64,000 bases of DNA from Escherichia coli. Lineage in GTDB: Bacteria > Pseudomonadota > Gammaproteobacteria > Enterobacterales > Enterobacteriaceae. The position numbers are program-made. Shown here piece by piece: positions 50,167 through 53,100 of this stretch. Location of the stretch: assembly GCF_030013205.1 (NCBI RefSeq), contig NZ_CP122648.1, one strand, 5' to 3'. The first letter of the stretch is position 1; every line of letters begins with the position of its first letter.

Positions 50167-53100
50167 TAAGTTTGCAAAGTGATAACTGCCGTGTGTTCCC
50201 TCAAAGCTATCGTTAATGGGCACACGGCATTTTTATATCAGATAAACGATATGTCATGACAATTTACAGACAGTATCGATATATAATTCATATTTATTAA
50301 TTTTTAATAATGATTCTCATCTGAGTATGTATCATACAATAAGCATTATAAATAACTAATAAATTATTTATTATATTTATATATTGCCCCACTCTTCAGT
50401 TATCCTGTCTAAAATAAATCTCTTTGTTTTCAAATGACTGTATTTTTATATAAAGTCAATCATTGCGAGCATGGATTCTTTTAGTTATATTACCAAGCAG
50501 CTCATATAATATTTTCAAGCCATTCTATCTCTTATTTTTTCTGTGGTTAACTACACCAGCTTTATTCATTTAAATAATTTGACTTATTAAAGCTGAATGT
50601 AAAAATAATCGCCAATATTGCTTGGATTTTTTAACAAAAGGAAAGGTATAAATGAAATTCAATCTATCTAATTTATCCGCAGTTTTACTCGCATCAGGTA
50701 TGCTGATGTCAACTGTAGTAACCGCTGCGCCAGGCGATGCATCACAATTTGGTGGTGCGGATACAGACTGGAGCACCGTTGATTATCCAAAACTCACCGA
50801 TATGGATAACAACACCGATGCGATGGGCGGAAACATCCGCTTTACTGGTCGTGTGGTTAAAGCGACGTGTAAGGTTGCTACAGAATCGAAACAGATTGAA
50901 GTGGTACTGCCAGTCGTACCTTCTAACGCTTTCACGGGCATTGATACCGAAGCAACGGGTGCCAGTAACCAGACTGACTTCAACATTAAACTGACTGATT
51001 GTAGCAATACGGACAGTCAAAATATTGAATTTCGTTTTACTGGCGTAGCAGACGGTGCCAACCAGACGCTTGCCAATGAAGTGGAAGGAGCTGCTGATGC
51101 TGATGGTACTGGCGAAGCGGGAGCTACGGGTGTAGGGATTCGTATTTATTCTAAAAACACGACAACTGATGGCCTGATTAAGCTGAACACACAAACTCCC
51201 CAGGGGGCCAGGCAAAAGGGAACGATGCAATAAACCTGGAAGATTAAAACGTTAAAGCAACTCAGGTCAGGGATATGAACCTAAAGCTCAGAAAACTCGA
51301 ACACAGGATGGCAAGGCAGAAGCAGATGAGGTGGTGTATGCTGCTTCTACTGACACTTTTGCCTGCGTGTTCAGTGGCGGGTATGCGCTTTAACCCTGCA
51401 TTCCTGTCGGGTGATACAGAAGCTGTTGCTGATTTATCTCGTTTTGAGAAAGGGATGACATATCTACCTGGTAGTTATGAGGTTGAAATATGGGTCAATG
51501 ATTCGCCTTTGACATCACGTAAGGTTACTTTCAAAGCTGATGAGCAGAATCAGTTGATCCCCTGTTTTTCGCTCGATGAGTTAGTTACTTTAGGAATTAA
51601 CAAAAGTGCATTGCCGGAACAGGCGCAAGCAGAGGGAAATAATTGTCTCGATTTACGTATATGGTTCGCAGAAGTTCAATACACTCCTGAACTGGATGCG
51701 CAACGACTCAAACTGACCTTTCCGCAGGCAATATTAAAGCATGAAGCCCGTGGTTATATTCCACCTGAGGAATGGGATAATGGTATCCCGGCCATTCTTA
51801 TTAATTATGATTTTTCTGGCAACAGTGATCGTGGAGACTATGCGTCTGATAGTTATTATTTAAATCTCCGTTCAGGTTTAAATTTAGGGGCGTGGCGTTT
51901 TCGTGATTATTCTACATGGAGTCGTTCAGGTAATTCACCGGGTAAAATTGCACATGTGAGTAGTACGTTACAACGAGTAATTATTCCTTTTAAAAGTGAA
52001 TTAACACTAGGTGATACCTGGTCTTCATCGGATGTTTTCGACAGTGTGAGTATTCGTGGTGCTAAACTTGAATCCGATGAAAACATGCTACCCGATAGCC
52101 AAAGTGGTTTTGCCCCCACTGTGCGCGGTATTGCTAAAAGCAATGCTCAGGTAACGATCAAACAAAATGGCTATGTTATTTATCAGACATATACTCCACC
52201 GGGACCCTTTGAAATCAACGATCTGAACCCTACGTCTTCCGCTGGGGATTTGGAAGTTACGATCAAAGAGTCTGATAATTCCGAAACTATCTATACTATT
52301 CCTTACGCCGCTGTTCCCATTCTTCAACGCGAAGGGCATATTAAATATTCGGCAACTGCCGGTAAATATCGTAGCAATAGCTATAATCAAAACAGTCCGA
52401 ATGTCTTTCAAGGAGATTTGATTTGGGGGTTACCCTGGGATATTACCACCTACGGAGGGATGCAATACTCAAATAATTATCGGGCAATAGCACTCGGGCT
52501 TGGGTTCAACCTTGGTATGTTTGGTGCGACGTCATTTGATTTAACGCAAGCCAATAGCACGCTTGCCGATGGCAGTAAACATCAAGGGCAATCGTACCGT
52601 TTCCTATATTCAAAATCGTTAGTGCAGACAGGTACGGCTTTTCAGATTATTGGTTATCGCTATTCGACGGAGGGATTTTATTCGTTGAGTGATACCACAT
52701 ACAAACAAATGTCGGGTACGGTTATCGATCCAGATACCCTTAATGAAAAAGACTATGTTTATAACTGGAATGATTTTTATAATTTACGTTATAACAAAAG
52801 AGGAAAGTTTCAGGCAAATATATCGCAACCATTGGGCGAATATGGCTCTATGTATTTGGCGGCAAGTCAACAAACTTACTGGAATACGAATAATAAAGAT
52901 ACCTTGTATCAGGTCGGCTATAATACGAGTGTACATGGGATTTATTTAAATATTGCTTATAATTATAGTAAGTCACCAGGTTCAGATGCGGACAGAATCT
53001 TATCCGTAAATGTCTCATTGCCGATCAGCAATTGGTTATCACCAGCTGTCGATGGGCGTACTGCGACAAATTCTATGACAGCAACTTATGGTTATAGTCA

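What the first reader, a model, noticed from the sequence alone, without database searches (positions are those of the whole stretch)
50170..50651. Extremely AT-rich ~480-bp leader upstream of the fimbrial operon
This is the most AT-rich stretch of the window, with long A/T tracts and near-palindromic AT motifs, ending in a strong SD before the pilin gene. It is a plausible H-NS-silenced regulatory region. I looked for an invertible switch with flanking inverted repeats, as in fimS, and did not see one, so regulation here is probably by silencing/anti-silencing rather than inversion.
Basis: inference. Interest (0 to 1): 0.4.

Follow-up and report, generated by a model that had tools for sequence, protein, structure and literature searches.

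The report
AT-rich promoter region of Auf fimbriae
This is the very AT-rich DNA between the glycogen gene glgP and a variant of the known E. coli Auf fimbrial operon: an ordinary silenced promoter region of the H-NS type, here in front of an operon already broken by a deletion.

Summary
Window 50170-50651 is the 482-bp glgP-aufA intergenic region. Its GC is 27.4%, against 50.8% for the window, and it is the lowest-GC stretch at every scale from 100 to 482 bp.

It is the left edge of the known auf chaperone-usher fimbrial island, which lies between glgP and glpD. A published CFT073 auf knock-out primer arm matches 50620-50654 exactly. The window carries a divergent allele: its proteins are 80-84% identical to CFT073 Auf, and 228 of 5426 complete E. 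coli genomes have it.

The region has four parts: a conserved glgP terminator-like hairpin; a ~200-bp AT core (13-20% GC) that keeps length and composition but not sequence between alleles; a conserved block with promoter-like hexamers; and an invariant translation start region.

No invertible switch exists. Inverted repeats are at chance level, the island has no recombinase gene, and 226 of ~228 genomes are colinear. There is no GATC, so no Pap-type switch either.

H-NS silencing is supported indirectly. In CFT073 ChIP-seq every auf gene is listed as H-NS/StpA-bound, and TosR overexpression induces auf.

In this genome a 996-bp deletion truncates aufA and removes aufB, so the control region fronts a defective operon. 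The finding is ordinary and of low interest.

The parts
47722..50169 (+). glgP (glycogen phosphorylase), last gene of glgBXCAP. Core-genome flank; homology with K-12 ends at 50172.
   Evidence: ORF; annotation of the 99.99%-identical strain K_EC180; K-12 alignment.
50170..50651 (+). The finding: the 482-bp glgP-aufA intergenic region, GC 27.4%, at the left edge of the auf-type fimbrial island.
   Evidence: 228 genomes carry it at 95% identity or more.
50187..50238 (+). Terminator-like hairpin for glgP: 9-bp stem TGCCGTGTG/CACACGGCA with a structured 25-nt loop, followed by a T5 run.
   Evidence: RNA fold of 50160-50250: -25.1 kcal/mol, z = -2.9. Retained in the CFT073-type allele with one compensatory G-C to A-T change and one mismatch. 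The consensus terminator scan missed it because the loop exceeds 8 nt.
50261..50460 (.). AT-rich core: GC 20.5% overall and 13% over 50279-50378. Sequence is not conserved between the two allele families, but composition and length are. Proposed H-NS/StpA nucleation and silencing tract.
   Evidence: composition; all-sequence column identity is 0.38-0.60 here, against 0.72-0.90 in the conserved blocks. Leaders are 482-494 bp and GC 0.271-0.283 in all 9 alleles. The role is inferred.
50453..50513 (+). Most conserved upstream block, holding two overlapping sigma-70-like candidates. The first is TTGCGA (50463-50468), a 17-nt spacer, then TATATT (50486-50491). The second is a perfect TATAAT at 50505-50510 with a poor -35. 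Predicted transcription start about 50498-50518, giving a 5' UTR of about 135-155 nt.
   Evidence: Column identity is 0.72-0.85 against about 0.5 for the rest of the leader. The start site is not mapped; this is inference.
50535..50540 (+). Poly-T tract of variable length: T6 here, T7 in EcPF15, T8 in O169:H41 and TUM14771.
   Evidence: Alignment A4. Leader lengths of 476, 477 and 478 among hits track the tract.
50579..50606 (+). Second promoter-like site: TTGACT, a 16-nt spacer, then (TG)AAAAAT. The -35 is specific to the window's sub-lineage (GTGACT or ATAACT elsewhere). The GAATGTAAAAA part (50595-50605) is invariant.
50610..50654 (+). Block from 50610 to the ATG. It is identical in CFT073 from 50620 to 50654 and nearly invariant across the 9 alleles (differences at 50611, 50617 and, in SCU485, a one-base longer T run). 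It holds a small hairpin CCAA/TTGG followed by T6, the SD AAGGAAAGG (50638-50646) and the aufA ATG (50652).
   Evidence: Positions 50620-50654 are identical to the homology arm of the published CFT073 auf knock-out primer.
50652..51233 (+). aufA' : major pilin gene truncated after about codon 185 (193-aa ORF against 234 aa when intact). It lacks the C-terminal part of the Fimbrial domain.
   Evidence: Pfam PF00419 matches profile positions 1-108 of 151 only. Alignment to the intact O169:H41 allele.
51203..51207 (+). Junction of a 996-bp deletion (a G run, with GG microhomology). It joins aufA to the last ~30 nt of aufB, so aufB is absent.
   Evidence: 17 of 228 genomes with this allele share the junction; the other 211 have the two halves about 1 kb apart.
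51275..53866 (+). aufC usher; 80% amino-acid identity to CFT073 AufC.
   Evidence: Pfam Usher, PapC_N and PapC_C.
53896..54961 (+). aufD and aufE minor pilin genes (53896-54429 and 54437-54961).
   Evidence: Pfam Fimbrial; annotation.
54927..55706 (+). aufF second chaperone, intact here. The G7 run at 55247-55253 is G6 and frameshifted in strain K_EC180.
55720..56850 (+). aufG putative tip adhesin; 81% identity to the CFT073-type protein.

Best explanation
The stretch is the glgP-aufA intergenic region of a divergent allele of the known Auf chaperone-usher fimbrial island. It has four parts.

- A hairpin that terminates glgBXCAP transcription, so that it does not read into the island.
- A ~200-bp core of 13-20% GC. 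I propose that its composition, not its exact sequence, nucleates H-NS/StpA filaments. These would spread over the low-GC operon and keep the promoter silent.
- A conserved ~60-bp block with the likely sigma-70 promoter(s).
- An invariant translation initiation region.

Expression would need an anti-silencer that binds AT-rich DNA (TosR or another PapB-family protein in strains that have one) or conditions that loosen H-NS. It would not need DNA inversion or Dam methylation.

What is shown: the identity of the locus, the anatomy, the conservation pattern, the absence of inversion, H-NS/StpA occupancy of the orthologous operon in CFT073, and the TosR effect there.

What is inferred: H-NS binding to this allele's leader, the promoter positions, and the nucleation role of the AT core.

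In this genome the control region is functionally moot. aufA is truncated and aufB is deleted.
For: Locus identity:
- The operon sits between glgP and glpD, as in CFT073.
- A paper places the auf operon in the glpD..glgP region (PMC12928451).
- The published auf knock-out primer arm matches 50620-50654 exactly.
- AufA, AufC and AufG are 84%, 80% and 81% identical to the CFT073-type proteins.

Composition:
- GC is 27.4%, the lowest in the window at scales up to 482 bp.
- Leader length (482-494 bp) and GC (27.1-28.3%) are kept in 9 alleles, while the distal sequence has diverged to about 40-55% column identity.

H-NS:
- CFT073 ChIP-seq lists c4204-c4214 as H-NS-bound and StpA-bound. Occupancies are aufA 0.24, aufB 0.62, aufC 0.46 and aufF/aufG about 0.68-0.69.
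- aufA, aufB, aufF and aufG are still flagged in the hns stpA double mutant. The authors read such retention as high affinity (PMC9765446).

Anti-silencing:
- TosR overexpression raises auf by log2 2.6-6.6, and aufA by log2 5.2 in qPCR (PMC5956150).
- H-NS repression is the documented rule for cryptic E. coli chaperone-usher operons (PMC3559732; Yad in CFT073, PMC13245861).

Alternatives excluded:
- No inverted repeats above chance.
- No recombinase or regulator ORF.
- 226 of about 228 genomes are colinear.
- No GATC, no Rfam family, and no significant 5' UTR structure (z = -0.63).

Terminator: with a compensatory change in the other allele.
Against: - No H-NS data exist for this allele or for the intergenic DNA itself. 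The CFT073 table is per gene, and aufA, the gene next to the leader, has the lowest occupancy in the operon (0.24).
- No hns-mutant expression data for auf were found.
- The TosR effect may be indirect. The published TosR motif is so degenerate that its best match in this leader (4 mismatches, 50276-50304) and in the CFT073 leader are both at chance level (20% and 26% of shuffles).
- The H-NS high-affinity motif TCGATAAATT has only two 2-mismatch hits in the leader.
- Promoter-like hexamers are no more frequent than in shuffles (5 found, 4.1 expected). The promoter assignment therefore rests on conservation alone.
- Whether this strain carries tosR or another PapB-family regulator is unknown.
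Confidence: 0.72

Rival explanations
1. The AT-richness is only compositional drift of unconstrained non-coding DNA at the edge of a decaying island. On this view it is a relic with no regulatory role, at least in this genome.
For: The operon is defective here: a 996-bp deletion truncates aufA and removes aufB. A close relative also has a frameshift in aufF. The distal leader is not conserved in sequence between alleles. Most E. coli lack the island altogether: 786 of 5426 genomes have either allele.
Against: Within the allele the leader is 95.8-100% identical to that of strains with an intact seven-gene operon, so the decay is recent. Conserved blocks exist (50453-50513, 50595-50605, 50610-50654). 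Length and GC are held constant across alleles that differ by about 25% in coding DNA. The orthologous operon is transcriptionally responsive in CFT073. This rival also overlaps the main explanation: the region can be a silencer in intact strains and a relic here.
Confidence: 0.12
2. Expression is tuned or phase-varied by slipped-strand changes in the poly-T tract (T6, T7 or T8 at 50535-50540). The CFT073-type allele has a different tract that varies T6, T8 and T9.
For: Length polymorphism sits exactly at homopolymer tracts in both allele families. On the minus strand the tract lies in the spacer of a promoter-like site, TTAACC-17-TAGAAT at 50550-50522.
Against: The tracts are short. Strains with near-identical leaders share the same length (six hits at 99.0% identity all have a 477-bp leader), so the change is slow. 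The tract is not in the spacer of either conserved + strand promoter candidate. Promoter-like hits are at chance frequency.
Confidence: 0.06
3. The conserved block from 50610 to the start codon, invariant from 50620 on, is a post-transcriptional control site. One candidate is CsrA binding to the two GGA motifs 16 nt apart (50624 and 50640), one of which lies in the SD. Another is the CCAA/TTGG hairpin followed by T6 acting as an attenuator. This would act in addition to silencing.
For: The stretch from about 50618 to 50663 is nearly invariant, while the operon averages about 75% DNA identity. All three GGA trinucleotides of the leader fall in conserved blocks. From my own knowledge, CsrA control of fimbrial mRNAs is known in Salmonella (fim/pef).
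Against: No covariation is possible because the columns are invariant. The fold is not better than shuffles. One GGA is simply the SD, and a second within 45 nt is expected by chance about 1 time in 4 (my estimate). The conservation could equally reflect a recombination tract or ordinary constraint on the ribosome-binding site and signal peptide.
Confidence: 0.07
4. The region is a fimS-like invertible promoter element or a Pap-like Dam/Lrp methylation switch.
For: Fimbrial operons often use these. One perfect 10-nt inverted repeat pair (50361-50370 and 50571-50580) flanks 200 bp.
Against: That repeat is AT-only, at chance level (33% of shuffles) and not conserved in other alleles. The island has no recombinase gene. 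226 of about 228 genomes are colinear. There are zero GATC sites in 50170-50651 and no papI/papB-like ORF.
Confidence: 0.01

Closest known systems
auf (aufABCDEFG) fimbrial operon of uropathogenic E. coli CFT073 and its upstream region
   Same: Same chromosomal site, glgP to glpD. Same gene order in the intact form of this allele. Proteins are 80-84% identical. The 35 nt before the ATG are identical. The leader has the same length and GC (494 bp and 27.1% against 482 bp and 27.4%). The terminator hairpin and promoter-proximal blocks are shared.
   Different: This is a deeply diverged allele: about 75% DNA identity over the operon, and the distal leader cannot be aligned by BLAST. It occurs in 228 genomes against 558 for the CFT073 type. 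It lacks the three hypothetical genes c4204-c4206 downstream. In this window it carries a 996-bp aufA-aufB deletion.
H-NS-silenced promoters of cryptic chaperone-usher fimbriae in E. coli (for example yad, ycb/elf and sfm in K-12; Yad in CFT073)
   Same: A very AT-rich upstream region on a low-GC operon, poor expression in the laboratory, and H-NS occupancy in ChIP-seq of the orthologous operon (PMC13245861, PMC3559732, PMC9765446).
   Different: For Yad, derepression in an hns mutant and reporter data exist. For auf, only occupancy and a TosR overexpression effect are known. Nothing has been measured for this allele.
pap/foc/tos regulatory regions controlled by PapB-family proteins against H-NS and Lrp
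   Same: AT-rich control DNA, and activation of auf by the PapB-family protein TosR.
   Different: There is no divergent papI/papB-type regulator gene next to the operon and there are no GATC sites. TosR binding here is unproven, and its motif match is at chance level.
fimS invertible element of type 1 fimbriae
   Same: It lies upstream of a chaperone-usher major pilin gene and is a few hundred bp long.
   Different: No inverted repeats above chance, no recombinase gene, and no inverted copies in about 228 genomes.

Membership tests
auf fimbrial locus (Auf chaperone-usher island) | Located between glgP and glpD | tested here: met
   literature placement.
auf fimbrial locus (Auf chaperone-usher island) | Gene order: pilin, chaperone, usher, two minor pilins, chaperone, adhesin | tested here: met
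   Met in the intact form of this allele (O169:H41). In the window the first chaperone is deleted and the pilin is truncated.
auf fimbrial locus (Auf chaperone-usher island) | Sequence homology to CFT073 Auf proteins and to the aufA start region | tested here: met
   80-84% amino-acid identity. The published auf knock-out primer arm is identical to 50620-50654.
H-NS (xenogeneic) silenced promoter region | AT content far above the genome average over hundreds of bp, with TA steps and A/T tracts | tested here: met
   GC 27.4% over 482 bp and 13% over 100 bp; A/T-only runs to 29 nt.
H-NS (xenogeneic) silenced promoter region | Physical H-NS/StpA occupancy | not testable with these tools
   Reported for all genes of the orthologous CFT073 island (PMC9765446 Data set S1E). 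There are no data for this allele or for the intergenic DNA itself.
H-NS (xenogeneic) silenced promoter region | Derepression when hns is deleted, or when an anti-silencer is expressed | not testable with these tools
   Only TosR overexpression in CFT073 is known. No hns-mutant data for auf were found.
fimS-type invertible switch | Inverted repeats of about 9 bp or more flanking the promoter segment, above chance and conserved | tested here: not met
   One AT-only 10-mer pair, and 33% of shuffles do as well. It is not conserved.
fimS-type invertible switch | Adjacent site-specific recombinase gene(s) | tested here: not met
   All island ORFs are pilins, an usher or a chaperone. The leader has no ORF above 36 aa on the + strand and none with an ATG start.
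fimS-type invertible switch | Both orientations found among genomes | tested here: not met
   226-227 of about 228 genomes match colinearly in one piece across glgP, the leader and the pilin gene.
Pap-type Dam/Lrp phase switch | Two GATC sites within Lrp-binding regions upstream of the pilin promoter | tested here: not met
   No GATC in 50170-50651; the nearest are inside glgP at 50134 and 50152.
Pap-type Dam/Lrp phase switch | Divergent papI and papB-like regulator genes | tested here: not met
   No such ORF.
Homopolymer slipped-strand promoter switch | A tract inside the -35/-10 spacer (or coding region) that is hypervariable among close relatives | tested here: inconclusive
   The tract varies T6 to T8 between sub-lineages. 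It is constant among near-identical strains and lies outside the spacers of the conserved + strand candidates.
Known RNA families (Rfam) | Match to a covariance model | tested here: not met
   No hit at E of 1 or below in 49900-51400.

The most novel reading that the evidence does not exclude
The auf leader is a 'compositional' silencer. Selection keeps its length (about 480-495 bp) and about 27% GC while its sequence turns over freely. Output is then set by two small conserved modules: the 50453-50513 promoter block and the invariant translation initiation region, which has two GGA motifs and may be a CsrA or attenuator site. The variable poly-T tract would act as a slow rheostat. If so, auf would be a clean natural system for separating sequence-independent H-NS nucleation from sequence-specific control.
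Probability: 0.1. Interest if true: 0.35.

Novelty: new member of a known kind. Interest (0 to 1): 0.15.

Why it matters
It matters little beyond annotation. The stretch can be labelled as the glgP terminator plus the control region of a variant auf fimbrial operon, probably silenced by H-NS and StpA. The operon in this genome should be flagged as defective.

Two modest points of wider use follow. First, auf regulation is almost unstudied: TosR is called the first known regulator, and it is unclear whether it acts directly. The two-allele comparison here narrows the candidate promoter to about 60 bp. It also identifies an invariant start region that could guide reporter design. Second, the conservation of length and composition without sequence in the AT core is a small natural illustration of composition-driven silencing.

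Tried and rejected
- H-NS high-affinity motif TCGATAAATT with up to 2 mismatches: only two hits in the leader, so uninformative.
- Published TosR motif WTWWWWTWTWWWTWAAWKWTATKAWTDTD: no match with 3 mismatches or fewer in the window. The best match has 4 mismatches and is at chance level. The same is true in CFT073.
- Rfam at E of 1 or below: nothing.
- Structure of the putative 5' UTR: z = -0.63. The consensus fold is weak, at -6.2 kcal/mol, and all pairs in the conserved part are invariant.
- Consensus promoter and terminator scan: hits at shuffle frequency. The glgP hairpin was missed because of its long loop.
- Small ORFs in the leader: only non-ATG ORFs of 20-36 aa within it, plus a 68-aa GTG ORF antisense to the pilin start. 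None is credible.
- AufA relatives in one genome per species (genome contigs): none confirmed, so no third, more distant leader was available for footprinting.
- Homology of K-12 yzgL, or of the window ORF 57051-57329, to CFT073 c4204 at the protein level: not significant. A 174-bp DNA match does exist at 57016-57189.
- Sheet 1A of the CFT073 ChIP data (RNAP class per gene) was cut in the stored copy before the auf genes, so their RNAP class could not be read.
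Full report
OBSERVATION

Window 50170-50651 is exactly the intergenic gap between the stop codon of an 815-aa ORF, which ends at 50169, and the ATG of a pilin gene at 50652. Its GC content is 27.4%, against 50.8% for the window. It holds the lowest-GC segment of the window at every scale from 100 to 482 bp, with 13% GC over 50279-50378. Only at 1 kb is another island (30308-31307) lower. A/T-only runs reach 22 and 29 nt.

Local AT palindromes are present and modestly beyond chance: DNA folding of 50265-50400 gives z = -2.25. The Shine-Dalgarno sequence AAGGAAAGG (50638-50646) pairs with the anti-SD at -7.5 kcal/mol, which ranks 10th of 33 genes in the window. It is good, not exceptional.

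WHAT THE LOCUS IS

The upstream gene is glgP, the last gene of glgBXCAP. The window is 99.99% identical to E. coli strain K_EC180, a swine isolate.

Downstream lies a chaperone-usher fimbrial cluster followed by glpD. In K-12 the same gap holds only the pseudogene yzgL, and homology to K-12 stops three bases after the glgP stop, at 50172. CFT073 has a seven-gene fimbrial operon at this position, and the literature places the auf operon in the glpD..glgP region (PMC12928451).

The homology arm of the published CFT073 auf knock-out primer, GCTTGGATTTTTTAACAAAAGGAAAGGTATAAATG, matches window 50620-50654 exactly. The stretch is therefore the glgP-aufA intergenic region.

The window carries a divergent allele. 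AufA, AufC and AufG are 84%, 80% and 81% identical to the CFT073-type proteins, and DNA identity over the operon is about 75%. This allele's leader occurs at 95% identity or more in 228 of 5426 complete E. coli genomes. The CFT073 type occurs in 558.

STATE OF THE OPERON IN THIS GENOME

An intact seven-gene version of this allele exists in O169:H41 strain Res13-Lact-PER13-34, whose leader is 98.7% identical. In the window, a 996-bp deletion with its junction in a G run at 51203-51207 joins aufA at about codon 185 to the last ~30 nt of aufB. The pilin ORF is 193 aa instead of 234. It covers only positions 1-108 of the 151-position Fimbrial profile, and the first chaperone gene is gone.

Seventeen of the 228 genomes share this junction, among them swine ETEC strains. 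The usher, two minor pilins, the second chaperone and the adhesin are intact here. The leader therefore fronts a defective operon.

ANATOMY OF THE 482 BP

(i) Positions 50187-50238 form a hairpin. It has a 9-bp G+C-rich stem, TGCCGTGTG/CACACGGCA, a structured loop and a following T5 run. Folding 50160-50250 gives -25.1 kcal/mol and z = -2.9. The CFT073-type allele keeps it, with one compensatory G-C to A-T change and one mismatch. I read it as the glgP terminator. It would insulate the island from the co-directional glg transcript. This part is not a fimbrial leader.

(ii) Positions 50261-50460 are the AT core, at 20.5% GC. Between the two allele families its sequence is essentially not conserved, with about 40-55% column identity, close to what AT-rich DNA gives by chance. 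Even so, all nine leaders compared are 482-494 bp long with GC of 27.1-28.3%.

(iii) Positions 50453-50513 are the most conserved upstream block, with 0.72-0.85 column identity. It contains TTGCGA-17-TATATT (50463-50491) and a perfect TATAAT at 50505-50510. These are the best promoter candidates, and they predict a 5' UTR of about 135-155 nt. This is inference from conservation only. Promoter-like hexamers in the region are no more frequent than in shuffles (5 against 4.1). That fits the known tendency of AT-rich DNA to be full of promoter-like sequences.

(iv) A poly-T tract at 50535-50540 varies T6, T7 and T8 among strains with this allele. The CFT073-type allele has a different tract that varies T6, T8 and T9.

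(v) Positions 50595-50605 (GAATGTAAAAA) are invariant. The stretch 50610-50654 is nearly so: it is identical in CFT073 from 50620, and across the nine alleles it differs only at 50611, 50617 and, in one strain, by a one-base longer T run. The high conservation continues through the signal-peptide codons.

There is no Rfam match, no significant RNA structure in the putative 5' UTR and no credible ORF.

TESTS OF SWITCH MECHANISMS

The only perfect inverted repeat of 10 nt (50361/50571) is AT-only. It is matched by 33% of dinucleotide shuffles and is not conserved in other alleles. None of 11 nt or more exists. The island encodes no recombinase.

With a query spanning the glgP end, the leader and the pilin start, 226 genomes match colinearly in one piece. 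With the leader alone, 227 of 228 do. By contrast, from my own knowledge, fimS is commonly found in both orientations in assemblies.

There are no GATC sites in the leader and no papI/papB-like gene. Inversion and Pap-type methylation switching are rejected.

The poly-T variation is real but slow. Strains with near-identical leaders share the same length, and the tract lies outside the spacers of the conserved + strand candidates.

EVIDENCE FOR H-NS SILENCING

No paper in the searchable library tests H-NS on auf directly. However, the CFT073 ChIP-seq study of Hustmyer et al. (PMC9765446) has a table of H-NS-bound genes (Data set S1E). It lists c4204-c4214, which is the whole auf island; the gene lengths match.

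- Occupancies are aufA 0.24, aufB 0.62, aufC 0.46, c4210 0.58, c4209 0.64, aufF 0.69 and aufG 0.68, with parallel StpA signal.
- aufA, aufB, aufF and aufG are still flagged as bound in the hns stpA double mutant. The authors interpret such retention as high affinity.
- About 18% of CFT073 genes are bound overall.

In the same strain, overexpression of TosR raises auf by log2 2.6-6.6. TosR is a PapB-family protein thought to act on AT-rich DNA against H-NS and Lrp. The authors call it the first known regulator of auf and leave open whether the effect is direct (PMC5956150).

H-NS repression is the documented norm for cryptic E. coli chaperone-usher operons (PMC3559732) and has been shown in detail for Yad in CFT073 (PMC13245861). 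Together with the extreme composition of this leader and the low GC of the operon (37-44%), these data make H-NS/StpA silencing the best-supported mechanism.

The support remains indirect. The ChIP table is per gene and for the other allele. aufA has the lowest occupancy of the operon. Sequence-motif tests for H-NS and for TosR were uninformative or at chance level.

VERDICT

Its interpretation, silencing rather than inversion, is supported, with three corrections:
- The first ~65 bp are the glgP terminator.
- The SD is good rather than outstanding.
- The operon behind the leader is broken in this genome.

The feature is a new (variant-allele) member of a well-known kind: the AT-rich, H-NS-type silenced control region of a horizontally variable chaperone-usher fimbrial operon. 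Interest is low.

The least ordinary aspects are three:
- The AT core keeps its length and composition without keeping its sequence.
- The translation start region is invariant.
- The poly-T tracts vary in length.

None of these currently points to a new mechanism.

Noticed in passing
window 51203-51207 (junction); 50652-51233 (aufA'): A 996-bp deletion with GG microhomology fuses aufA at about codon 185 to the last ~30 nt of aufB. The major pilin is truncated and the first chaperone is lost. 17 of the 228 genomes with this allele share it, including swine ETEC strains ETEC4068 and ETEC1701.
   Followed up: yes
window 55247-55253: There is a G7 homopolymer inside the second chaperone gene aufF. 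The window has G7 and the gene is intact. The otherwise 99.99%-identical strain K_EC180 has G6 and a frameshift. This is a possible slippage hot spot, or a sequencing difference.
   Followed up: partly
window 50535-50540; CFT073-type alleles at the position aligned to about 50566: Poly-T tracts in the leader differ in length between strains: T6, T7 and T8 in this allele, and T6, T8 and T9 at a different tract in the CFT073-type allele. The length is stable among near-identical strains.
   Followed up: partly
window 30000-32900: This is a second low-GC island (GC 0.29-0.35) carrying yrhB, yrhA and an Hcp1-family tssD (yhhZ) gene. The CFT073 orthologues yhhZ and yrhA are among the most strongly H-NS/StpA-occupied genes listed (about 0.79).
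   Followed up: partly
window 15100-16448; 16500-16591 and 22328-22419: By colinearity with K_EC180, an IS3-family IS1397 transposase sits between livJ and panM. A ~92-bp inverted repeat pair (86% identity) lies at 16500-16591 and 22328-22419. It may be a palindromic-unit (BIME-type) repeat.
   Followed up: no
window 56850-57357; L004 15197-17285: The CFT073-type island has three hypothetical genes (c4204-c4206; no Pfam match; H-NS-bound) between aufG and glpD. This allele lacks them and keeps only a 174-bp remnant (57016-57189, 77% identity). K-12 yzgL lies in the same gap, but no protein-level homology to c4204 could be shown.
   Followed up: partly
window 50612-50633: A small hairpin, CCAATATTGCTTGG followed by ATTTTTT, lies within the strongly conserved region just upstream of the SD. 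It is terminator- or attenuator-like but weak, and no covariation test is possible.
   Followed up: partly
window 50173-50240 compared with L003 4074-4130: K-12 and the auf-carrying strains each have a terminator-like hairpin right after glgP, but with unrelated sequences. The island boundary therefore sits at the stop codon, and each arrangement supplies its own glgP terminator.
   Followed up: no
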